Source: Escherichia coli (lineage in GTDB: Bacteria; Pseudomonadota; Gammaproteobacteria; Enterobacterales; Enterobacteriaceae). From it: DNA of 64,000 nt. The notes beneath the pieces were generated by a model. The model made no database searches. It was not told where the DNA came from and saw only the letters and a program-made list of their open reading frames with translations. The stretch is from the NCBI RefSeq assembly GCF_030384885.1, contig NZ_CP128613.1; one strand, given 5' to 3'. The translations under genes were made by a program, and so were the position numbers. Of the stretch, positions 16,052-51,167 are shown one piece after another (position 1 is the stretch's first letter; the number at the start of each line of letters is the position of its first letter).

Positions 16052-16805
16052 GTTGTCACCCTGGACCTGGTCGTACATTTAAGAAATTAAATCATTTCAA
16101 CTTGGTTGTTAACGCAACCTGTATTTTGTTAACGCTGCGTTACGATGGAAAGTATGTCTGCGGAAATATTTTTAATAACTCACCCGCGCGTTGTATTTTT
16201 CTTTTTTTGTTCATACCAAAGTATTAAAACCCACGTAAATACGCTGTTATCTACGCAAAAAAATATTTTGTTTTCTTTTAAATTTCGGTTTTCCGCAATC
16301 AAAAATCACCAGACAGTCATTCTTCTTGCCCGTCGCTGATTGCTGCGATATGTCTTGCGCACAAGCCGTGACAAACCTCGTCTTTTTGCAGTAAAAAATT
16401 GTCCACGGAGGTGTGGAGAAAAAACAAGAACGTTTTACATGACGAAAGGACTACACCGAAATATTTTTTATATGCATTATTAGCAAGTTAGCACCATTTG
16501 TATGATTTTTTAAAATTGTGCAAGAAAAACCAAATGTACAACTTTTCTATCATTTCTAAACTTAATAAAACCTTAAGATTAACATTTTAATATAACGAGT
16601 TACATTTAGTTACATGTTTAACACTTGATTTAAGATTTGTAATGGCTAGATTGAAATCAGATGTAATCCATTAGTTTTATATTTTACCCATTTAGGGCTG
16701 ATTTATTACTACACACAGCAGTGCAACATCTGTCAGTACTTCTGGTGCTTCTATTTTAGAGGCAGCTGTCAGGTGTGCGATCAATAAAAAAAGCGGGGTT
16801 TCATC
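16052..16805. promoter_or_regulatory. csgB-csgD divergent intergenic control region
   Basis: ~750 bp AT-rich non-coding spacer between divergent csgBAC and csgDEFG; established as a densely regulated region (OmpR, CpxR, IHF, H-NS, MlrA, sRNA-targeted csgD leader). Individual sites not mapped here. Confidence 0.7.
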
Positions 16806-22348: not shown

Positions 22349-22436
22349 GGTGAGGTGTCCGAGTGGCTGAAGGAGCACGCCTGGAAAGTGTGTATACGGC
22401 AACGTATCGGGGGTTCGAATCCCCCCCTCACCGCCA
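22349..22436 (+). tRNA. serX: tRNA-Ser (anticodon GGA)
   Basis: GGTGAGGTGTCCGAGTGGCTGAAGGAGCACGCCTGGAAAGTGTG...GGTTCGAATCCCCCCCTCACCGCCA: class II tRNA with long variable arm, GGA in the anticodon loop, CCA 3' end. Confidence 0.9.
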
Positions 22437-30909: not shown

Positions 30910-31974
30910 TTAACTGTATGCATGTAGCGTACGTTGGCAAAGTGCCGAACGTACGCAATCCTCTTTACCGAATCGGACGATCCCGACCATTTCATCCTCT
31001 TCGAAACGTTCCAGCGCGTCACTTAATCCGGAGCGCACGCCGCGAGGCAAATCGCATTGCGTGATATCACCGTTGACGATAACCGTCACGTTCTCCCCGA
31101 GGCGGGTTAAAAACATTTTCATTTGCGCGGCAGTCACATTCTGCGCCTCGTCAAGAATGACGACTGCATTTTCAAAGGTACGTCCACGCATATAGGCGAA
31201 CGGCGCAATTTCCACCTTCCCTATTTCCGGTCGCAGGCAGTACTGCATAAAGGAAGCCCCTAAGCGACGGACCAGCACGTCGTAGACCGGGCGAAAATAG
31301 GGAGCAAACTTTTCTGCGATATCACCAGGTAAGAAACCTAGATCTTCATCGGCTTGCAGAACTGGACGGGTGACAATAATCCTGTCGACATCCTTATGTA
31401 TCAGGGCCTCTGCCGCTTTTGCGGCACTGATCCAGGTTTTTCCGCACCCGGCTTCGCCGGTGGCGAATATCAGCTGCTTACTCTCAATAGCCTTCAGATA
31501 GTGCAATTGCGCTTCATTTCGCGCGAGGATGGGCGAGGTATCGCGACTGTCGCGGGCCATACCAATGGCTTCTACGCCGCTCATCTGCACAAGCGAGGTG
31601 ACCGATTCTTCTTCACGCTGCTTATGGCTGCGCGAATCCCGTCTCAGCACACGTTTTGCCTCGCGACGAGCTTTGATCACTGCTTTTTGTCTTCCCATGG
31701 AGAGCACCTTGAGTTGTTTGTATTCATCACACGCGCCGTTGGCAGCGCGATTATGCGCACGAACATCAGAGGGTTGGCTTCCTTGTAAGCCATAGTTTGC
31801 TGTTGGATAAAATGCCGAAAAACGGCTACGCACACCGTTTGCGGCGTCGGTAACACATGAAAAGTAAGGAAGAATTTGAAAATGCAAAGTGACGAGATGA
31901 CTACCGGAGGAGAAATCTCCGCGAGTGGTGGAGCGTTGCTTAACAAAACATTGTCCAGTACAGGACGTTACCAT
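30910..31974 (-). CDS. phoH: PhoH, phosphate-starvation-inducible ATPase (354 aa)
   Basis: 354-aa ORF with Walker A motif GEAGCGKT. Confidence 0.9.
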   Translation of the reverse strand: MVTSCTGQCFVKQRSTTRGDFSSGSHLVTLHFQILPYFSCVTDAANGVRSRFSAFYPTANYGLQGSQPSDVRAHNRAANGACDEYKQLKVLSMGRQKAVIKARREAKRVLRRDSRSHKQREEESVTSLVQMSGVEAIGMARDSRDTSPILARNEAQLHYLKAIESKQLIFATGEAGCGKTWISAAKAAEALIHKDVDRIIVTRPVLQADEDLGFLPGDIAEKFAPYFRPVYDVLVRRLGASFMQYCLRPEIGKVEIAPFAYMRGRTFENAVVILDEAQNVTAAQMKMFLTRLGENVTVIVNGDITQCDLPRGVRSGLSDALERFEEDEMVGIVRFGKEDCVRSALCQRTLHAYS

Positions 31975-32159: not shown

Positions 32160-32430
32160 GCTTTCAGCAGGATTCGCATCAGGCATCAACGCACGAACGC
32201 CGGATGCGGCGTGAACGCCTTATCCTGCCTACCGAACCCGCACCGATTGTAGGCATGATAAGACGCGCAAGCGTCGCATCAGGCATCAACGCACGAACGC
32301 CGGATGCGGCGTGAAAGCCTTATCCAGCCTACCGAACCCGCACCGATTGTAGGCATGATAAGACGTGTAAGCGTCGCATCAGGCATCAGCGCACGAGCGC
32401 CTGGTGCGGCGTAAACGCCTTATACGCCTA
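32160..32430. repeat. Cluster of REP/BIME elements
   Basis: Three tandem ~115-bp units containing gcatcaggcatcaacgcacgaacgccggatgcggcgtgaacgccttatc...gtaggcatgataagacg. Confidence 0.7.
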
Positions 32431-34898: not shown

Positions 34899-35729
34899 TT
34901 ACGCGGAGCGAGACGCTGTCGCCCCTGCGCGCGGCGGCAGAGCAAATGCCACCAGCGCCGGGATGAGATAAATAAACCAGACGGCGACTTCGCTGACGCT
35001 CGGCGCTTCCTGATAACCAAAGATACCTTCCATCAGCGTACCGAACAGCGAGTGAGTTGAGAGCACCGCGCTCATATCGAAGGCGATTTCCTGAAAGTGG
35101 TTCCACAGCCCGGCTTCATGAAACGCGCGAATAGCACCTGCCGCCAGCCCTGCGGCGACGAAGAGAATAAACAGGCTGGTCCATTTAAAAAACGCGCCAA
35201 GATTGAGGCGAATACCGCCCCAGTAGAGCAGGAAGCCGAGCACCACGGCTGTAGCAAGACCGAGCATTGCACCCAGCGGAGGCCAGATACCGACATCTTG
35301 TTGAAACGCCGCCAGCAGGAAAAAGACCGACTCCAGTCCTTCCCTTGCAACGGCAAAAAAGACCATCATCACCAGCGCCCAGCCATGATGATTCCCACGC
35401 TGCAATGCGCTATCGACTGCCTGTTCCAGTTGCACTTTGACGTTGCGCGACACTTTACGCATCCAGAAAACCATCCAGGTGAGGATCACCACGGCAATCA
35501 CCGCCACGATACCTTCGAACAATTCCTGCTCTTTTTGCGGAAATTCGCCGGTAGTTTCATTAATGAATATACCCAGCCCCAGGCACAACGCAGCGGCTAG
35601 CAACACGCCAATCCACATGACACCAATCCATCGACCTCGCTGGGTACGCTTAAGATAGCTGGCAATCAGGCTGACAATCAGCGCGGCTTCAAGTCCTTCG
35701 CGCAACATAATGAGAAACGGAACAAACAT
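34899..35729 (-). CDS. efeU: Ferrous iron permease EfeU, intact (276 aa)
   Basis: Uninterrupted ORF 34899-35738; start at MFVPFLIMLREGLEA; two REGLE motifs typical of the Ftr1/EfeU family. Confidence 0.85.
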   Translation of the reverse strand: MFVPFLIMLREGLEAALIVSLIASYLKRTQRGRWIGVMWIGVLLAAALCLGLGIFINETTGEFPQKEQELFEGIVAVIAVVILTWMVFWMRKVSRNVKVQLEQAVDSALQRGNHHGWALVMMVFFAVAREGLESVFFLLAAFQQDVGIWPPLGAMLGLATAVVLGFLLYWGGIRLNLGAFFKWTSLFILFVAAGLAAGAIRAFHEAGLWNHFQEIAFDMSAVLSTHSLFGTLMEGIFGYQEAPSVSEVAVWFIYLIPALVAFALPPRAGATASRSA

Positions 35730-35785
35730 GCCACCCACCCTTAAACGTTTTTCTGAGTCAATCTATGCAAAGAAAAGTAAATCGC

Positions 35786-35948: not shown

Positions 35949-37457
<1,509 letters not shown>

Positions 37458-37639
37458 CTAAAGTCTCCAAAAAATTATTATCGGCAATGTCGAAACTTGC
37501 CGTTATATCTGCCACCGGAACGGGGTAGCAGAGTTTATGTTTTACCAGGGCGACCGTATCCTGCCGGAAGCGCTGGTTATTCACAATCGATTTAACACAC
37601 CATTTACATTAAATTTTAGTGCTCAGCGATACTATTTTT

Positions 37640-37860
37640 CATCAGGTTGCACTCCCTCACATTTTTTGTGGTTGCACCTTTCAAAAATGTTAACTGCCGC
37701 AGAGAAAAAGTCTGAGTTATTTTTTTAATCCCTGTCATATCGATTTCTTTTATTAACATTTCATTCATTTTTAAGCTTGCTACGCAGGTCACATTTAACA
37801 TAGTTGCACAAAGTTGCAACATCATGGATATTTCACGATAACGTTAAGTTGCACCTTTCA
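37640..37860. promoter_or_regulatory. put control region with five GTTGCA motifs (PutA operator half-sites)
   Basis: GTTGCA at 37646, 37671, 37803, 37813 and 37848 within the putP-putA divergent intergenic region; PutA is established to bind GTTGCA motifs. Confidence 0.7.
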
Positions 37861-37879
37861 GAACAACAGGAGTAATGGC

Positions 37880-40800
37880 ATGGGAACCACCACCATGGGG
37901 GTTAAGCTGGACGACGCGACGCGTGAACGCATTAAGTCTGCCGCGACACGTATCGATCGCACACCGCACTGGTTAATTAAGCAGGCGATTTTTTCTTATC
38001 TTGAACAACTGGAAAACAGCGATACTCTGCCGGAGCTACCTGCGCTGCTTTCTGGCGCGGCCAATGAGAGCGATGAAGTACCGAATCCGGCAGAGGAACC
38101 ACACCAGCCATTCCTCGACTTTGCCGAGCAAATTTTGCCACAGTCGGTTTCCCGTGCGGCTATCACCGCCGCCTATCGCCGCCCGGAAACCGAAGCGGTT
38201 TCTATGCTGCTGGAACAAGCTCGCCTGCCGCAGCCGGTTGCTGAACAGGCGCATAAACTGGCGTATCAACTGGCCGATAAACTGCGTAATCAAAAAAATG
38301 CCAGTGGTCGCGCAGGCATGGTTCAGGGATTATTGCAGGAGTTTTCGCTGTCATCGCAGGAAGGCGTGGCGCTGATGTGTCTGGCGGAAGCACTATTGCG
38401 TATTCCCGACAAAGCCACCCGTGATGCGTTAATACGCGACAAAATCAGCAACGGTAACTGGCAGTCACATATTGGTCGTAGCCCGTCGCTGTTTGTTAAT
38501 GCCGCCACCTGGGGGCTTCTCTTTACCGGCAAACTGGTTTCTACCCATAACGAAGCCAGCCTCTCCCGTTCGCTGAATCGCATTATCGGTAAGAGTGGCG
38601 AACCGCTAATCCGCAAAGGTGTGGATATGGCGATGCGTCTGATGGGCGAGCAGTTCGTCACTGGTGAAACCATCGCGGAAGCGTTAGCCAATGCCCGCAA
38701 GCTGGAAGAGAAAGGTTTCCGTTACTCCTACGATATGCTGGGCGAAGCCGCACTGACCGCAGCGGACGCGCAGGCATATATGGTTTCCTATCAGCAGGCG
38801 ATTCACGCTATTGGTAAAGCCTCCAATGGTCGTGGCATCTATGAAGGTCCAGGCATTTCAATCAAGCTGTCGGCGCTGCATCCGCGCTACAGCCGCGCCC
38901 AGTACGATCGGTTAATGGAAGAGCTTTACCCGCGTCTGAAATCATTAACCTTGCTGGCGCGTCAGTACGATATTGGTATTAACATTGATGCCGAAGAGGC
39001 CGATCGTCTGGAGATCTCCCTCGATCTGTTGGAAAAGCTTTGTTTCGAGCCTGAACTGGCAGGCTGGAACGGCATCGGTTTTGTTATTCAGGCTTATCAA
39101 AAACGCTGCCCGCTGGTGATCGATTACCTGATTGATCTCGCCACCCGCAGCCGTCGTCGTCTGATGATTCGCCTGGTGAAAGGCGCGTACTGGGATAGTG
39201 AAATCAAACGTGCGCAAATGGACGGCCTTGAAGGTTATCCGGTTTATACCCGCAAGGTGTATACCGATGTTTCTTATCTCGCTTGTGCGAAAAAGCTGCT
39301 GGCGGTGCCAAATCTCATTTACCCGCAGTTTGCAACGCACAACGCCCACACGCTGGCGGCGATTTATCAACTGGCAGGTCAAAACTACTATCCGGGTCAG
39401 TACGAGTTCCAGTGCCTGCATGGTATGGGCGAGCCACTGTATGAGCAGGTCACCGGGAAAGTTGCCGACGGCAAACTTAACCGTCCGTGTCGTATTTATG
39501 CTCCGGTCGGTACCCATGAAACACTGCTGGCATATCTGGTGCGTCGCCTGCTGGAAAACGGTGCTAACACCTCGTTTGTTAACCGTATTGCTGATACCTC
39601 TTTGCCACTGGATGAACTGGTTGCCGATCCAGTCACTGCAGTAGAAAAACTGGCGCAACAGGAAGGGCAAACTGGATTACCCCATCCGAAAATTCCCCTG
39701 CCGCGCGATCTTTACGGTCACGGGCGCGACAACTCGGCAGGGCTGGATCTCGCCAATGAACACCGACTGGCCTCGCTCTCCTCAGCCCTGCTCAACAGTG
39801 CACTGCAAAAATGGCAGGCCTTGCCAATGCTGGAACAACCGGTCGCGGCTGGTGAAATGTCACCCGTTATCAACCCGGCGGAACCGAAAGATATTGTGGG
39901 CTATGTGCGTGAAGCCACGCCACGTGAAGTAGAACAGGCGCTGGAAAGTGCAGTTAATAACGCGCCAATCTGGTTTGCCACGCCTCCGGCCGAACGCGCG
40001 GCGATTTTGCATCGCGCTGCCGTACTGATGGAAAGTCAGATGCAGCAACTGATTGGTATTCTGGTACGTGAGGCCGGAAAAACCTTCAGTAACGCCATTG
40101 CCGAAGTGCGTGAAGCCGTCGATTTTCTCCACTACTACGCGGGACAGGTGCGGGATGATTTCGCTAACGAAACCCACCGTCCATTAGGGCCTGTGGTGTG
40201 TATCAGCCCGTGGAATTTCCCGCTGGCGATTTTCACCGGGCAAATCGCTGCCGCACTGGCGGCAGGTAACAGCGTACTGGCAAAACCGGCAGAACAAACG
40301 CCGCTGATTGCCGCACAAGGGATTGCCATTTTGCTGGAAGCGGGTGTACCGCCAGGCGTGGTGCAGTTGTTGCCCGGTCAGGGTGAAACCGTAGGCGCGC
40401 AACTGACGGGTGATGATCGCGTGCGCGGGGTGATGTTTACCGGATCAACCGAAGTCGCTACGTTACTGCAACGCAATATCGCCAGCCGCCTGGACGCTCA
40501 GGGTCGCCCAATTCCACTCATTGCGGAAACCGGCGGCATGAACGCGATGATTGTCGATTCTTCAGCACTGACCGAACAAGTCGTAATAGATGTGCTGGCC
40601 TCGGCCTTCGACAGTGCGGGTCAGCGTTGTTCGGCACTGCGCGTGCTGTGCCTGCAAGATGAGATTGCCGACCACACGTTGAAAATGCTGCGCGGCGCAA
40701 TGGCCGAATGCCGGATGGGTAATCCGGGTCGCCTGACCACCGATATCGGTCCGGTGATTGATGGCGAAGCGAAAGCCAATATCGAGCGCCATATTCAGAC

Positions 40801-41842
40801 TATGCGTAGTAAAGGCCGTCCGGTGTTCCAGGCGGTGCGGGAAAACAGTGAAGATGCCCGTGAGTGGCAAAGTGGCACCTTTGTCGCCCCGACGCTGATC
40901 GAACTGGATGATTTTGCCGAATTGCAAAAAGAGGTATTTGGTCCGGTGCTGCATGTGGTGCGTTACAACCGTAACCAGTTGCCGGAACTGATCGAACAGA
41001 TTAACGCTTCCGGTTATGGTCTGACGCTTGGCGTCCATACGCGCATTGATGAAACCATTGCCCAGGTCACTGGCTCGGCCCATGTCGGTAATCTGTATGT
41101 TAACCGTAATATGGTGGGCGCAGTGGTTGGGGTGCAACCATTCGGCGGCGAAGGGTTGTCCGGCACCGGGCCGAAAGCAGGCGGCCCGCTCTATCTCTAC
41201 CGTCTGCTGGCGAATCGCCCGGAAAGTGCGCTGGCGGTGACACTGGCGCGTCAGGATGCAGAGTATCCGGTCGATGCACAATTGAAATCCGCATTGATCC
41301 AGCCGCTAAATGCACTGCGTGAATGGTCGGCAAACCGTCCAGAATTGCAGGCGTTATGTACGCAATATAGCGAGCTGGCGCAGGCAGGAACACAACGATT
41401 GCTGCCAGGGCCGACGGGTGAACGCAACACCTGGACGCTGCTGCCGCGTGAGCGCGTGTTGTGTATTGCGGATGATGAACAGGATGCGCTGACTCAGCTC
41501 GCCGCCGTGCTGGCGGTGGGCAGCCAGGTGCTGTGGCCGGATGACGCTCTGCATCGTCAGTTAGTGAAGGCATTGCCATCGGCAGTCAGCGAACGTATTC
41601 AACTGGCGAAAGTGGAAAATATTACCGCTCAACCGTTTAATGCGGTGATCTTCCACGGGGATTCGGATCAGCTTCGTGCATTGTGTGAAGCGGTTGCCGC
41701 GCGGGATGGCGCAATTGTTTCGGTGCAGGGTTTTGCCCGTGGCGAAAGCAATATCCTGCTGGAACGGTTGTATATCGAGCGTTCGCTGAGCGTGAATACC
41801 GCTGCCGCTGGCGGTAACGCCAGTTTAATGACGATTGGTTAA
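37880..41842 (+). CDS. putA: Bifunctional proline dehydrogenase / P5C dehydrogenase and transcriptional repressor PutA (1320 aa)
   Basis: ORF 37814-41842; start at MGTTTMGVKLDDATRERIK (ribbon-helix-helix N-terminus) gives 1320 aa. Confidence 0.95.
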   Translation: MGTTTMGVKLDDATRERIKSAATRIDRTPHWLIKQAIFSYLEQLENSDTLPELPALLSGAANESDEVPNPAEEPHQPFLDFAEQILPQSVSRAAITAAYRRPETEAVSMLLEQARLPQPVAEQAHKLAYQLADKLRNQKNASGRAGMVQGLLQEFSLSSQEGVALMCLAEALLRIPDKATRDALIRDKISNGNWQSHIGRSPSLFVNAATWGLLFTGKLVSTHNEASLSRSLNRIIGKSGEPLIRKGVDMAMRLMGEQFVTGETIAEALANARKLEEKGFRYSYDMLGEAALTAADAQAYMVSYQQAIHAIGKASNGRGIYEGPGISIKLSALHPRYSRAQYDRLMEELYPRLKSLTLLARQYDIGINIDAEEADRLEISLDLLEKLCFEPELAGWNGIGFVIQAYQKRCPLVIDYLIDLATRSRRRLMIRLVKGAYWDSEIKRAQMDGLEGYPVYTRKVYTDVSYLACAKKLLAVPNLIYPQFATHNAHTLAAIYQLAGQNYYPGQYEFQCLHGMGEPLYEQVTGKVADGKLNRPCRIYAPVGTHETLLAYLVRRLLENGANTSFVNRIADTSLPLDELVADPVTAVEKLAQQEGQTGLPHPKIPLPRDLYGHGRDNSAGLDLANEHRLASLSSALLNSALQKWQALPMLEQPVAAGEMSPVINPAEPKDIVGYVREATPREVEQALESAVNNAPIWFATPPAERAAILHRAAVLMESQMQQLIGILVREAGKTFSNAIAEVREAVDFLHYYAGQVRDDFANETHRPLGPVVCISPWNFPLAIFTGQIAAALAAGNSVLAKPAEQTPLIAAQGIAILLEAGVPPGVVQLLPGQGETVGAQLTGDDRVRGVMFTGSTEVATLLQRNIASRLDAQGRPIPLIAETGGMNAMIVDSSALTEQVVIDVLASAFDSAGQRCSALRVLCLQDEIADHTLKMLRGAMAECRMGNPGRLTTDIGPVIDGEAKANIERHIQTMRSKGRPVFQAVRENSEDAREWQSGTFVAPTLIELDDFAELQKEVFGPVLHVVRYNRNQLPELIEQINASGYGLTLGVHTRIDETIAQVTGSAHVGNLYVNRNMVGAVVGVQPFGGEGLSGTGPKAGGPLYLYRLLANRPESALAVTLARQDAEYPVDAQLKSALIQPLNALREWSANRPELQALCTQYSELAQAGTQRLLPGPTGERNTWTLLPRERVLCIADDEQDALTQLAAVLAVGSQVLWPDDALHRQLVKALPSAVSERIQLAKVENITAQPFNAVIFHGDSDQLRALCEAVAARDGAIVSVQGFARGESNILLERLYIERSLSVNTAAAGGNASLMTIG

Positions 41843-46922: not shown

Positions 46923-48251
46923 ATGGCAATGTTCGGTTTTCCTCACTGGCAGTTAAAATCGACCTCTACAGAGAGCGGCGTGGTCGCGCCGAATGAACGA
47001 TTGCCGTTTGCTCAGACGGCAATAATGGGCGTTCAACACGCGGTGGCGATGTTTGGCGCGACGGTGTTAATGCCGATTCTGATGGGGCTGGATCCCAACC
47101 TTTCCATTTTAATGTCGGGGATCGGCACGTTACTGTTTTTCTTTATTACCGGCGGGCGCGTCCCCAGTTATCTCGGTTCCAGCGCGGCTTTTGTCGGCGT
47201 GGTGATCGCCGCGACGGGCTTTAATGGTCAGGGAATTAATCCGAATATCAGCATCGCGCTGGGCGGGATTATCGCCTGTGGGCTGGTTTATACCGTCATT
47301 GGCCTGGTGGTGATGAAAATCGGTACGCGCTGGATTGAACGACTAATGCCGCCGGTTGTGACGGGTGCGGTGGTGATGGCGATTGGCCTGAACTTAGCGC
47401 CTATCGCAGTGAAAAGTGTATCGGCTTCGGCCTTTGATAGTTGGATGGCGGTAATGACGGTGCTGTGTATTGGGCTGGTGGCGGTGTTTACCCGTGGCAT
47501 GATCCAGCGATTATTGATTCTCGTAGGATTAATTGTCGCCTGTCTGCTGTATGGCGTGATGACCAACGTTTTAGGGCTGGGAAAAGCCGTCGATTTTACT
47601 CTCGTCAGCCATGCTGCCTGGTTCGGTCTGCCACATTTTTCCACTCCTGCTTTTAATGGTCAGGCAATGATGCTGATTGCGCCCGTGGCGGTTATTCTGG
47701 TGGCGGAAAACTTAGGTCATCTGAAGGCGGTAGCCGGGATGACCGGACGCAATATGGACCCGTATATGGGGCGGGCATTCGTAGGCGATGGGCTGGCAAC
47801 AATGCTTTCGGGTTCTGTCGGCGGTAGCGGCGTGACCACCTATGCTGAAAATATCGGTGTGATGGCTGTGACAAAAGTCTATTCGACGCTGGTGTTTGTT
47901 GCTGCCGCCGTCATCGCCATGCTGTTGGGCTTTTCGCCGAAATTTGGCGCACTAATCCATACCATTCCGGCACCGGTGATTGGTGGTGCGTCAATTGTTG
48001 TGTTCGGGTTAATTGCCGTCGCAGGCGCGCGGATCTGGGTACAAAATCGTGTGGATTTAAGTCAGAACGGTAATTTGATTATGGTCGCAGTAACCTTAGT
48101 GCTGGGTGATGGTGATTTTGCTCTCACGCTGGGCGGTTTTACGTTGGGAGGGATCGGTACAGCAACCTTTGGCGCGATTTTACTCAATGCGTTGTTGAGC
48201 AGAAGGTTGGTTGACGTTCCTCCGCCAGAAGTTGTTCATCAGGAACCATAA
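46923..48251 (+). CDS. rutG: Pyrimidine permease RutG, NCS2 family (442 aa)
   Basis: Start MAMFGFPHWQLKSTSTES; polytopic membrane protein; last gene of the operon. Confidence 0.9.
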   Translation: MAMFGFPHWQLKSTSTESGVVAPNERLPFAQTAIMGVQHAVAMFGATVLMPILMGLDPNLSILMSGIGTLLFFFITGGRVPSYLGSSAAFVGVVIAATGFNGQGINPNISIALGGIIACGLVYTVIGLVVMKIGTRWIERLMPPVVTGAVVMAIGLNLAPIAVKSVSASAFDSWMAVMTVLCIGLVAVFTRGMIQRLLILVGLIVACLLYGVMTNVLGLGKAVDFTLVSHAAWFGLPHFSTPAFNGQAMMLIAPVAVILVAENLGHLKAVAGMTGRNMDPYMGRAFVGDGLATMLSGSVGGSGVTTYAENIGVMAVTKVYSTLVFVAAAVIAMLLGFSPKFGALIHTIPAPVIGGASIVVFGLIAVAGARIWVQNRVDLSQNGNLIMVAVTLVLGDGDFALTLGGFTLGGIGTATFGAILLNALLSRRLVDVPPPEVVHQEP

Positions 48252-48333
48252 ACAGAAAACCGCCGGGGTAACCGGCGGTGATGGCTTTTTGACGAGCTAC
48301 AGACAAAAATGCATTCGTCATTGATTAGCCCGG

Positions 48334-48507
48334 CTAGTTGTCGCTTTTGCCGTGACTGCTCTTGCCACCTTTTTTACCTGCTTCAGATGCGCGCTGCGGG
48401 TCATTTTTGAAATTACCCCCGCTGTGCTGTCCACCTTTTTTACCTGCTTCTGATGCTCTTTCGCGGTCTTCTGCAAAATTGCCGGAACCGCCTCGATGGT
48501 TTGCCAT
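48334..48507 (-). CDS. ymdF: Stress-induced KGG-repeat protein YmdF (57 aa)
   Basis: MANHRGGSGNFAEDRERASEAGKKGGQHSGGNFKNDPQRASEAGKKGGKSSHGKSDN: KGG repeats, hydrophilin-like. Confidence 0.8.
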   Translation of the reverse strand: MANHRGGSGNFAEDRERASEAGKKGGQHSGGNFKNDPQRASEAGKKGGKSSHGKSDN

Positions 48508-48861
48508 TACTGACCTCCGTCTGGGTATAGACATCATATTGCATAGAATTAACGCGGCGTATGGCGGCTGCCATATTTTCGCTACGTGGGACTAAGCTTA
48601 GTGAACTGACGCGGGCAGACCCGCGTTTGGTAATATCCTGCAACAGCTTCTTAGCGAGAATAGATATCATCTCCAATAATTATCTATAAGCCGCTCTTAT
48701 GATTAAAAAAACGCGATGAGATAAAAATGTGTCATTTTGCGACAAAATTGCGTGCTTGTGAAAGTTGTTATAAATCAAATAAGTGGTTGTGAAATTTGCA
48801 CTCTGAAAAGGACGTCTTATCTTTAAATAAGTGGTAGCGAATCGCTACGGAATAGAGATAA

Positions 48862-49476
<615 letters not shown>

Positions 49477-49496
49477 TCTTCAACAGGAGGATACGC

Positions 49497-49724
49497 ATGC
49501 CAACTCAAGAAGCGAAAGCTCATCACGTCGGTGAATGGGCATCTCTGCGCAATACGTCGCCGGAAATAGCCGAGGCCATTTTCGAAGTCGCCGGGTACGA
49601 CGAAAAAATGGCGGAAAAGATTTGGGAAGAAGGTAGCGATGAAGTGTTAGTCAAAGCCTTTGCTAAGACCGATAAAGATTCGCTTTTTTGGGGCGAACAG
49701 ACCATCGAACGTAAAAACGTTTAA
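49497..49724 (+). CDS. yccJ: Small protein YccJ (75 aa)
   Basis: 75-aa ORF 20 nt downstream of wrbA. Confidence 0.85.
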
Positions 49725-49732
49725 TCCTGAAC

Positions 49733-49759
49733 CTCCCCCGTAGTGAACGGGGGAGTTTT
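49733..49759 (+). terminator. Rho-independent terminator after yccJ
   Basis: ctcccccg-tagtgaa-cgggggag followed by tttt. Confidence 0.75.
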
Positions 49760-50259
49760 CGATTATTCATTGACCAACGTCTCATGTCCTGTTATTACTG
49801 TGAGATATTCAATCACGTTATCAAATAAAAAAATCGATATCATTGCGGTAAGCTTGTTATTGATTATAAATATGGGTAATAAGCGATATCCAGCATGAAT
49901 TTGATTGTACAGGGTATTTCCTATATAGCCATTGGTTAAATCTTGAAGATAAGATACCTCCGGCTGAAAAATCCATCCCGGCAATGAAGGATGTGATATT
50001 TTCGTAATTCTCTTGCAGAATAAACAACCCTGGATACGCTCTGAATACAAGGAAATTTTCCAATAAATTATTTATTCATCAATACTCCCCGGCGAGGATC
50101 ATCAAAATATCTCATTATCTTTTAAAACTGCCCAGCCCGTTATAACGGACGTTATCTGGCGCACGCTGAAGTGGGCATGATACTCACTTTCATTAAAATG
50201 CTCGACATGATTTGCTAATCGCTTAGCTAGATAATTGACGTTCAGTCTGTGCCAAATTT

Positions 50260-50619
50260 TTAGCGAAAAATAGCAAATTTAAGCCGGGAATTTATCAAAG
50301 CATCCTCATTTACTTCACCATGAACAATAAAGTCACGCATAAACTGCAGGTGTTTAATTAATAAAATCCATTCACTTTCAGTAAGATAGTTTTTCCCACG
50401 CAGATTATAATACAGAGATTTGATTAATGGGATCTTCTGCTTATGGCGCTTTGACCGCGCTGAGCACAATATTTGTTCTATCAGGCCAAGCGTCCCTTTC
50501 TGACGCAACCAGCACCGGAGTTCAGACTGCGCGCTAATGCCGCGAGCCACCGACAAATGTATTTGGGTAAGCAATGCGTATAAACCTAATAAAAACGCGT
50601 CGTGATAATACCGCTTCAT
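50260..50619 (-). CDS. Hypothetical protein (119 aa) in an AT-rich insertion; C-terminal R-x4-H-G motif (HEPN-like?)
   Basis: ATG at 50619 preceded at 12 nt by the previous ORF's TAA and an SD-like GAGGTGGG; translation MKRYYHDAFLLGLYALL...HLQFMRDFIVHGEVNEDALINSRLKFAIFR. I recognise no family; the reading frame is open in a very AT-rich context. Confidence 0.5.
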   Translation of the reverse strand: MKRYYHDAFLLGLYALLTQIHLSVARGISAQSELRCWLRQKGTLGLIEQILCSARSKRHKQKIPLIKSLYYNLRGKNYLTESEWILLIKHLQFMRDFIVHGEVNEDALINSRLKFAIFR

Positions 50620-50631
50620 TACCCACCTCTG

Positions 50632-51000
50632 TTATCGTAATTTTTTAAACAAATAATCATATAAAATTTCGGCAATGAATTCTGCATGTTCACGTCGCAC
50701 AATGACATTCATAACGTAATATTGCGCAGCAATTTCATTGATAAAATGTTCAGGCAGTATGAATACGCGTGCATAAGCCGAGTATATTTCCAGTATTTCA
50801 TTTGAGATGTTTTCAAGATCAACGCAATAATTTGTCACATCATAAAAAAGATTAGCGTATTTTTTATTAATTATGCTAAGGCATATAAATGGGGCATTTA
50901 ATTTTTCACACAATTGCCAGTGCGTTCTTTCATTTTCTCCCTTCCATGTATACTTCATTTTGTCAGCCATCCTTTGATTTACGCGTCTGAAGTTTACCAC
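50632..51000 (-). CDS. Hypothetical protein (up to 122 aa; start may be GTG 51000 or the internal ATGs MADK / MKYTW) in an AT-rich insertion
   Basis: Open frame immediately upstream of and co-directional with the 119-aa ORF; candidate -10 TATAAT on the minus strand at 51036-51041. No family recognised. Confidence 0.45.
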   Translation of the reverse strand: MVNFRRVNQRMADKMKYTWKGENERTHWQLCEKLNAPFICLSIINKKYANLFYDVTNYCVDLENISNEILEIYSAYARVFILPEHFINEIAAQYYVMNVIVRREHAEFIAEILYDYLFKKLR

Positions 51001-51098
51001 TGTGTCTGGGGTAAACCATGCGTTCTATGGTAAAAATTATACGAGATGTGGCGCTGCGTAATATTCTGCTCCCTCAATATATTTCTGGTGAATATGTT

Positions 51099-51131
51099 CC
51101 AGGTTAATTGGGAAGATCTGCATGTGATCTT
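51099..51131. repeat. Perfect 13-bp inverted repeat aattgggaagatc-N7-gatcttcccaatt
   Basis: Seen directly; lies ~40 bp beyond the agp stop at the edge of the AT-rich insertion; candidate terminator or protein-binding palindrome. Confidence 0.6.
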
Positions 51132-51167
51132 CCCAATTTTATGACTACAAAATGTCAATAGCCGGGT

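What the first reader, a model, noticed from the sequence alone, without database searches (positions are those of the whole stretch)
37640..37860. Put control region retains all five GTTGCA operator motifs
Five GTTGCA hexamers lie in the putP-putA divergent intergenic region, two near putP and three near putA. This agrees with the established PutA autoregulatory operator architecture and supports the annotation of the long N-terminally trimmed putA start.
Basis: partly seen in the sequence, partly recalled or inferred. Interest (0 to 1): 0.15.

Follow-up and report, generated by a model that had tools for sequence, protein, structure and literature searches.

The report
E. coli PutA operator sites, as published
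The five GTTGCA motifs are real and are the well-known binding sites through which the E. coli PutA protein switches off its own gene and the proline transporter gene, so this is textbook biology with only small strain-level differences.

Summary
Confirmed and ordinary. The window is E. coli chromosome. Five same-strand GTTGCA hexamers (37646, 37671, 37803, 37813, 37848) lie in the 422-bp putP-putA divergent intergenic region. About 0.08 would be expected by chance, and none of 20,000 shuffles gave 4 or more. They sit at the same aligned positions as in E. coli K-12. From my memory of Zhou et al. 2008 (J Mol Biol 381:174), which I could not read here, K-12 put control DNA is where the five PutA operators were mapped. 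The PutA ribbon-helix-helix domain encoded here is 100% identical to the crystallised one. Across 113 genomes with an RHH-bearing putA, GTTGCA is about 20-fold enriched upstream of putA.

The putA start at ATG 37880 is correct. The operators support it only indirectly. The identical N-terminus in solved structures, the conserved Shine-Dalgarno sequence and the non-conserved upstream extension are the real evidence.

Three nuances emerged:
- The O3-O4 tandem is the deeply conserved core. O1 and O2 are shared across enteric genera. O5 was seen only in E. coli among 18 enteric species sampled.
- This strain has A instead of G directly 5' of O3. That position is G in 84 of 87 genomes, and the A allele occurs in about 2% of E. 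coli genomes.
- The "hypothetical protein" annotated across O1-O4 looks spurious.

Novelty: already known.

The parts
37646..37651 (+). Operator 1 (cagGTTGCActcc), the putP-side pair
   Evidence: Exact hexamer. Same column as K-12. Conserved as GGTTGCACTC in 13 of the 15 aligned enteric relatives; Mangrovibacter and MAG_CTSoil have GTTGTA. Also present in Klebsiella. The flank at 37655 differs from K-12 (C vs T), at a position that varies between genera.
37671..37676 (+). Operator 2 (gtgGTTGCAcctttcaaa), the putP-side pair
   Evidence: Exact hexamer. Same column as K-12. Conserved as GGTTGCACC in most enteric genera. Base 37669 is T here and C in K-12, at a position that varies between genera. 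From memory, this is the operator crystallised with PutA52 (PDB 2RBF).
37803..37808 (+). Operator 3 (ataGTTGCAcaaa), first half of the conserved tandem core
   Evidence: Exact hexamer. The tandem GTTGCA-N4-GTTGCA is present in 84 of 113 genomes with an RHH-putA. The base at -1 (37802) is A here, G in K-12, G in all 15 aligned enteric relatives and G in 84 of 87 tandem cores. The A allele is in 106 of 5090 E. coli genomes.
37813..37818 (+). Operator 4 (aaaGTTGCAac), second half of the tandem core, inside the palindrome GTTGCAAC
   Evidence: Exact hexamer on both strands. 10 bp from O3. Invariant in all aligned enteric genera. It contains TTG 37814, the first in-frame start codon of the mechanical 1342-aa ORF.
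37848..37853 (+). Operator 5 (taaGTTGCAcctttca), 32 bp upstream of the putA ATG
   Evidence: Exact hexamer. Present in K-12, O157:H7, FDAARGOS_1293, EcMAD1 and EC22. Absent at this position in E. albertii, 14 other enteric species and two Klebsiella species. It shares the 13-mer GTTGCACCTTTCA with O2.
37880..41842 (+). putA, trifunctional PutA (1320 aa). Residues 1-52 (37880-38035) form the ribbon-helix-helix DNA-binding domain.
   Evidence: RefSeq annotation of the identical record. Pfam PutA_1st (RHH), PRODH, Pro_dh-DNA_bdg, Pro_dh and Aldedh are all above their cut-offs. Residues 1-63 are identical to PDB 4O8A and residues 1-52 to 2GPE and 2RBF.
35949..37457 (-). putP, sodium/proline symporter (502 aa), transcribed divergently
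   Evidence: ORF. RefSeq annotation. Pfam SSF, E = 2.9e-149.
37868..37872 (+). Shine-Dalgarno AGGAG, 7 nt before ATG 37880
   Evidence: Read from the sequence. ACAGGAG is conserved 7-9 nt before the ATG in all 9 enteric relatives checked.
37804..37832 (+). Inferred putA promoter: -35-like TTGCAC (37804-37809, inside O3), a 17-nt spacer containing O4, and -10-like GATATT (37827-37832)
   Evidence: Inference from the sequence. GGATAT(T) is conserved in 15 of the 16 aligned sequences. The alternative -10, GATAAC (37837-37842, paired with TTGCAA in O4), is not conserved. The consensus scan did not report either candidate because they fall below its thresholds. No transcription start was mapped here.
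37616..37825 (-). 69-aa ORF that RefSeq/PGAP annotates as a 'hypothetical protein', overlapping O1-O4. Probably not a gene.
   Evidence: Annotated in E. coli records. No Pfam hit. Interrupted by a stop after 34 codons in E. albertii and not kept as an ORF in the other genera, although the operators are conserved. Its start, MMLQLCAT, is simply the reverse-strand reading of O4-O3.

Best explanation
This is the put control region of E. coli. [quoted passage not shown]

Mechanism, from established knowledge. When proline is scarce, dimeric PutA binds these sites. O3 and O4 overlap the putA promoter, O5 lies just downstream of it, and O1 and O2 lie on the putP side. Binding represses both divergent genes. 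When proline is present, reduction of PutA's FAD drives the protein to the membrane, the operators are vacated, and putA and putP are expressed.

Shown here: the motifs exist and cannot be chance; they are positionally identical to those of K-12; the cognate RHH domain is identical to the crystallised one; and the motif is strongly and specifically enriched upstream of RHH-type putA genes across gamma- and beta-proteobacteria.

Inferred, not shown here: actual binding, which site represses which gene, and the promoter positions.
For: - Hexamer positions and statistics.
- Identity of the locus (putP, putA, E. coli).
- All five hexamers in the same columns as K-12, with no substitution inside any of them.
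- Five hexamers also present in O157:H7, FDAARGOS_1293 and EcMAD1.
- RHH domain 100% identical to PDB 2GPE, 2RBF and 4O8A.
- Phylogenetic footprint: in 113 genomes encoding an RHH-PutA, GTTGCA occurs at 12.4 per kb in the 350 bp upstream of putA against 0.63 per kb in the flanking DNA (about 20-fold). All 113 have at least one site, and 84 have the tandem with 10-bp spacing.
- O1-O4 lie within invariant blocks in 15 enteric species plus Klebsiella, while the surrounding sequence diverges.
- Literature held in the library confirms that PutA residues 1-52 form the RHH domain. It also confirms that this domain binds the ~420-bp E. coli put control DNA (Kd ~45 nM) and represses putA and putP, with proline-driven switching to the membrane (PMC5293562; PMC5879082).
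Against: Nothing in the sequence argues against it. The limits are these:
- The primary paper that mapped the five operators (Zhou et al. 2008) could not be read. The statement that exactly these five sites were shown to bind PutA, three acting on putA and two on putP, rests on my memory of its abstract.
- No binding or expression data exist for this strain.
- O3 carries a flank substitution (G to A at -1) at a position that is otherwise nearly invariant. Its affinity may therefore differ from K-12.
Confidence: 0.95

Rival explanations
1. The hexamers are a chance cluster in an AT-rich intergenic region and have no function.
For: GTTGCA is not enriched in the window overall: 58 hits observed against 54 expected.
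Against: - Five same-strand copies where 0.08 are expected, and 0 of 20,000 shuffles with 4 or more.
- Identical placement in K-12.
- About 20-fold enrichment upstream of putA in 113 genomes.
- The hexamers lie within invariant blocks, while neighbouring bases vary between genera.
Confidence: 0.005
2. The conserved TTGCA(C/A) elements are kept mainly as promoter -35 hexamers (TTGACA-like) for putA and putP, not as repressor sites.
For: TTGCAC (in O3) and TTGCAA (in O4) each lie 17 nt upstream of a -10-like hexamer, GATATT and GATAAC respectively (conservation of GATATT).
Against: - The same extended motif (G)GTTGCAC(C) recurs at O1, O2 and O5, where no such -10 partner exists.
- The leading G and the trailing C are invariant, beyond what a -35 element needs.
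- The motif tracks the presence of the RHH domain in 113 genomes.
- A solved PutA RHH-DNA complex exists (PDB 2RBF); that its DNA is an operator holding this motif is from memory.
- The two roles do not exclude each other: operator overlap with a -35 element is how repression would work.
Confidence: 0.03
3. The sequence is conserved because it encodes the 69-aa 'hypothetical protein' annotated on the minus strand (37616-37825).
For: RefSeq/PGAP annotates this ORF in most E. coli genomes.
Against: - No Pfam family.
- The ORF is cut by a stop after 34 codons in E. albertii and is not preserved in Citrobacter, Kluyvera, Enterobacter, Leclercia and others, while the operator blocks stay invariant.
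- Conservation is block-wise at the operators, not codon-wise.
Confidence: 0.015

Closest known systems
E. coli K-12 put control DNA with PutA operators 1-5 (Zhou et al. 2008, J Mol Biol 381:174, PMID 18586269; PutA52-operator 2 complex, PDB 2RBF)
   Same: - Same locus, same 422-bp intergenic length, and five GTTGCA hexamers at the same aligned positions and orientation.
- Identical RHH domain.
- The K-12 operator 2 context TTTGCGGTTGCACCTTTCAAA, as I recall it from the crystallised 21-mer, is present in the K-12 row of the alignment.
   Different: There are seven substitutions in the intergenic region and none in a hexamer. Four lie next to operators:
- O1 +4 (37655): C here, T in K-12.
- O2 -2 (37669): T here, C in K-12.
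- O3 -1 (37802): A here, G in K-12.
- O5 +7 (37860): A here, T in K-12; here K-12 carries the minority base among the strains inspected.

Only the O3 -1 change hits a position conserved across genera.
put control regions of other Enterobacteriaceae (E. albertii, Citrobacter, Klebsiella, Enterobacter, Kluyvera, Leclercia and others)
   Same: - Divergent putP-putA arrangement, with an intergenic length of about 420 bp (measured only in the window and the two Klebsiella loci).
- O1, O2, O3 and O4 at nearly the same distances from the putA ATG: about 235, 210, 77 and 67 bp.
   Different: - None of the 17 non-E. coli enteric species inspected has the + strand hexamer at -32 (O5).
- Some carry a different extra site: an inverted hexamer at about -102 (E. 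albertii, Kluyvera, Mangrovibacter) or at -42/-43 (K. pneumoniae, RIT691).
- Salmonella, Shigella and E. fergusonii were not in the sample.
Pseudomonas put control region with trifunctional PutA (P. putida PutA RHH domain, PDB 2JXG/2JXH/2JXI)
   Same: - The RHH domain matches at E = 5.9e-20.
- The same GTTGCA motif and the same tandem pair 10 bp apart, about 88 and 78 bp upstream of putA, plus further sites about 245 and 311 bp upstream.
   Different: - The flanks differ: GGGTTGCACCCGGTTGCACC against GGTTGCACAAAGTTGCAAC.
- The second site is not palindromic, and an additional inverted site lies at about -268.
Other ribbon-helix-helix repressors (Arc, MetJ, CopG, NikR, RHH antitoxins)
   Same: - The RHH fold: CopG-family chains are weak sequence matches (E ~ 2e-4).
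- Short operator motifs used in tandem, a spacing of about one helical turn, and autoregulation.
   Different: PutA's RHH domain is fused to two enzymes. It is controlled by redox-driven relocation to the membrane rather than by a co-repressor or a toxin partner (PMC5293562).

Membership tests
PutA operators of the E. coli put control region | Sequence motif 5'-GTTGCA-3' | tested here: met
   Five exact copies on one strand. Far above chance.
PutA operators of the E. coli put control region | Location in the divergent putP-putA intergenic region | tested here: met
   All five lie within 37458-37879, between putP (-) and putA (+).
PutA operators of the E. coli put control region | Positional correspondence with the operators of K-12, the strain in which they were mapped | tested here: met
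   Same alignment columns and no substitution in any hexamer. That these five K-12 sites are the published operators comes from memory of Zhou et al. 2008, which could not be read.
PutA operators of the E. coli put control region | A cognate PutA with an intact RHH DNA-binding domain encoded next to the sites | tested here: met
   Residues 1-52 are identical to PDB 2GPE and 2RBF. Pfam PutA_1st scores 76 bits against a cut-off of 27.
PutA operators of the E. coli put control region | Flanking bases contacted by PutA (a 9-bp footprint per site, from memory of Zhou et al. 2008) match the reference operators | tested here: inconclusive
   O1, O2, O4 and O5 keep their immediate flanks. O3 has A instead of G at -1, a position that is G in 84 of 87 genomes. 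A at -1 is natural at O4 and O5, so binding is not excluded. The effect on affinity is unknown.
PutA operators of the E. coli put control region | Physical binding by PutA and repression of putA and putP | not testable with these tools
   Needs EMSA, footprinting, ITC or reporter assays.
Trifunctional (type C) PutA | RHH + PRODH + P5CDH (aldehyde dehydrogenase) + C-terminal domain in a single polypeptide of about 1300 aa | tested here: met
   1320 aa. Pfam PutA_1st 11-43, PRODH 89-136, Pro_dh-DNA_bdg 148-259, Pro_dh 268-569 and Aldedh 659-1103. About 215 residues follow the Aldedh domain; the C-terminal domain was not modelled separately.

The most novel reading that the evidence does not exclude
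The five-operator layout may be a lineage-specific elaboration of an ancient two-site core, the O3-O4 tandem. O5 would then be an E. coli-specific gain, and accessory sites would turn over between genera. In addition, this strain's lineage, about 2% of complete E. coli genomes including E24377A, carries a G-to-A change directly 5' of O3. That position is G in 84 of 87 proteobacterial put operators. The change may weaken O3 and partly relieve putA autorepression, which would make it a natural regulatory polymorphism.
Probability: 0.25. Interest if true: 0.25.

Novelty: already known. Interest (0 to 1): 0.08.

Why it matters
It matters little beyond annotation quality.

- It confirms that the put regulatory region and the putA start are intact in this strain.
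- It flags a probably spurious "hypothetical protein" that RefSeq propagates across the operators.
- The comparative by-products may interest people who study transcription-factor site turnover or PutA regulation. These are the deeply conserved O3-O4 core, an O5 seen only in E. coli, and a rare flank variant at O3. They are incremental to a system characterised structurally and biochemically since 2008.

Tried and rejected
**Literature.**
- I tried to read the primary operator-mapping paper (Zhou et al. 2008) by PubMed id and by PMC id. I also tried related reviews and papers (PMC2664619, PMC3715380, PMC2242416, PMC2666929). None is held.
- Full-text searches for PutA with GTTGCA, for PutA52 and for 2RBF found nothing relevant. 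PMC3413123 does not mention PutA.
- The published operator map is therefore cited from memory.

**Promoters.** The consensus promoter scan reported only one weak minus-strand site (-35 37642-37637, -10 37618-37613). Its -10 is not conserved between genera, so I do not rely on it. The putA promoter given in the parts list is my own inference.

**RNA elements.** Rfam found no RNA family in the intergenic region.

**Salmonella.**
- I looked for Salmonella to test whether O5 is E. coli-specific.
- The plasmid collection added only Klebsiella and Plesiomonas.
- I judged a 13-CPU-hour protein search not worth spending on a side question.

**O5 as a copy of O2.** I considered this because they share the 13-mer GTTGCACCTTTCA. 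I rejected it as the simple explanation. E. albertii has the flank ACCTTT-AGAAC without the hexamer, so point changes in a pre-existing context, or loss in E. albertii, fit better.

**Strain identity.** I checked whether the window equals strain 2013C-4282 throughout. It is identical and in register only between about 31,235 and 48,108. Elsewhere indels shift the register.

Full report
**What is there.** Window positions 37458-37879 form a 422-bp, 38% G+C intergenic region. It lies between a 502-aa ORF on the minus strand (35949-37457) and a long ORF on the plus strand. Pfam identifies the first as a sodium:solute symporter. It identifies the second as a protein with PutA RHH, PRODH, proline dehydrogenase and aldehyde dehydrogenase domains. 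A 551-bp query around the region matches 5420 of 5426 complete E. coli genomes. It is 100% identical to strain 2013C-4282 and about 98% identical to K-12. RefSeq annotates putP and putA on either side. The wider window is ordinary E. coli core chromosome, running from solA to torS.

**The observation.**
- O4 lies in the palindrome GTTGCAAC, which adds a minus-strand hit at 37815.
- The hexamer is not enriched in the window as a whole (58 hits against 54 +/- 8 expected).
- The intergenic region should hold about 0.08 copies per strand. None of 20,000 shuffles had 4 or more.
- No other 220-bp span of the window has more than 3 hits on both strands together.

**What it is.** Aligned with K-12, the intergenic region has 7 substitutions and no indel. 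All five hexamers are unchanged and in the same columns. Four other E. coli lineages inspected also keep all five: K-12, O157:H7, FDAARGOS_1293 and EcMAD1. PutA residues 1-63 are identical to PDB 4O8A, and residues 1-52 are identical to 2GPE and 2RBF.

Literature held in the library supports the following points (PMC5293562; PMC5879082):
- Residues 1-52 are the RHH DNA-binding domain.
- PutA binds the ~420-bp E. coli put control DNA with a Kd of about 45 nM.
- PutA represses the divergent putA and putP genes.
- Proline reduction of the flavin moves PutA to the membrane.

My memory of the abstract of Zhou et al. 2008 (PMID 18586269) supplies three further points. Five GTTGCA operators were mapped by gel shift. 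Three are critical for putA repression and two for putP repression. PutA52 contacts 9 bp, the hexamer plus three flanking base pairs. That paper appears in both reference lists but could not be opened.

**Independent comparative support.** I scanned one genome per species for the conserved RHH coding segment HWLIKQAIF. This returned 120 loci, all encoding M-x-x-T-T-[ML]-G-V-K... PutA N-termini.
- In the 113 loci with at least 350 bp upstream, GTTGCA occurs at 12.4 per kb upstream of putA against 0.63 per kb in the flanks.
- Every one of the 113 loci has at least one site.
- 84 have the tandem GTTGCA-N4-GTTGCA.
- The tandem, equivalent to O3-O4, lies about 60-90 bp upstream of the start codon in enterics, Aeromonas, Pseudomonas and Ralstonia, and about 130-140 bp upstream in Cupriavidus.
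- Its consensus is G-GTTGCA-C-N3-GTTGCA-N-C, with the leading G present in 84 of 87 cores and the C after the first hexamer in 87 of 87.
- Within Enterobacteriaceae, O1 and O2 are also conserved at about -235 and -210, inside otherwise diverging sequence.

This is a clear phylogenetic footprint of a binding site for the RHH domain.

1. O5 (-32) was found only in E. coli.
   - E. albertii, 14 other enteric species and two Klebsiella species lack it.
   - Some of them carry a differently placed or inverted extra hexamer at about -102 or -43.
   - The 'five-operator architecture' therefore looks like an E. coli elaboration of a conserved four-site enteric layout, which itself sits on a two-site core.
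   - Salmonella, Shigella and E. fergusonii were not sampled, so this is provisional.

2. Four of the seven differences from K-12 lie next to operators.
   - Three are at positions that vary between genera, or where K-12 is the odd one out.
   - The fourth, G to A directly 5' of O3 (37802), is at a position that is G in all 15 aligned enteric relatives and in 84 of 87 tandem cores.
   - The exact 45-mer carrying the A is present in 106 of 5090 matching E. coli genomes, including E24377A.
   - O4 and O5 naturally have A at -1. From memory, transplanting O4's flanks into O2 lowered affinity about 15-fold.
   - A modest weakening of O3 is therefore plausible but untested.

**The putA start.**
- The mechanical ORF begins at TTG 37814 (1342 aa). 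That TTG lies inside operator 4.
- The true start is ATG 37880, giving 1320 aa. It is the RefSeq start.
- Solved structures begin with the same MGTTTMGV.
- AGGAG lies 7 nt upstream. ACAGGAG is conserved in all 9 enteric relatives checked.
- The in-frame upstream stretch is 3-132 nt in those relatives and 81 nt in the window, and has no conserved sequence.

**Promoter relationship (inference).** TTGCAC inside O3, a 17-nt spacer that contains O4, and GATATT (37827-37832) form a promoter-like element. Its -10 (GGATAT) is conserved in 15 of the 16 aligned sequences. O5 would then lie just downstream of the transcription start. This fits repression by promoter occlusion, but no start site was mapped here. 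The generic scan does not report the element.

**Rivals.** Chance is excluded. A coding explanation through the annotated 69-aa minus-strand ORF fails. The ORF has no family, is broken in E. albertii and is not kept in other genera, while the operators are. A 'promoter element only' reading cannot explain O1, O2 and O5, nor the invariant flanking G and C. It is also compatible with operator function.

**Verdict.** This is a correct, already-known feature: the PutA operators of the E. coli put control region. Novelty is 'already known' and interest is low. The only mildly new points are the apparent E. coli-specificity of O5, the rare O3 flank allele, and the probably spurious RefSeq ORF over the operators.

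Noticed in passing
window 37616-37825 (-): RefSeq/PGAP annotates a 69-aa 'hypothetical protein' (WP_000979518/516/523) inside the put control region, covering O1-O4. It has no Pfam hit. It is cut by a stop in E. albertii and is not preserved in other genera. It is probably an annotation artefact propagated through thousands of E. coli genomes.
   Followed up: partly
window 37591-37609: The block TTTAACAC-NN-CATTTACAT, about 40 bp on the putP side of O1, is conserved across most enteric genera in an otherwise diverging stretch. It may be a putP promoter or an activator-site element.
   Followed up: no
L130 (E. coli EC22, NZ_CM169479.1) 1788-2723: In strain EC22 an IS1 element abuts the put control region. 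pgaB is truncated, and phoH, efeUOB, putP, O1 and O2 are missing. Only O3-O5 and putA remain. This is a natural deletion that separates the two operator groups.
   Followed up: partly
L009 (Silvimonas terrae), about 185-255 bp upstream of putA: A perfect (CTGCAA)n microsatellite of about 13 units reads as tandem reverse-complement GTTGCA hexamers. It lies upstream of two or three ordinary GGTTGCACC-type sites. It is unclear whether it is a coding repeat, slippage-prone spacer DNA or an operator array.
   Followed up: no
L003, L015, L028, L046, L079 and other Burkholderia, Paraburkholderia and Caballeronia loci: In these beta-proteobacteria the put upstream region has one + strand GTTGCA at about -83 and one inverted copy at about -104. 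This is a convergent or inverted pair about 21 bp apart, in place of the direct tandem with 10-bp spacing.
   Followed up: no
window 34899-35738 (-): efeU is annotated as an intact 276-aa permease gene in the identical record. In K-12, from memory, efeU is a frameshifted pseudogene.
   Followed up: no
window 30915-31108 (+), 16659-16750 (+), 32252-32329 (-), 22349-22433 (+): Rfam gathering-threshold hits: Ysr251 (antisense to phoH), ES056 (csgD leader region), naRNA4/CssrE (REP-derived) and tRNA-Ser. There are none in the put control region.
   Followed up: no
window 1-31234 and 48109-64000: The window is identical and in register with E. coli 2013C-4282 only between about 31,235 and 48,108. 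Outside that range indels shift the register, so the window probably comes from a close relative rather than from that exact assembly.
   Followed up: partly
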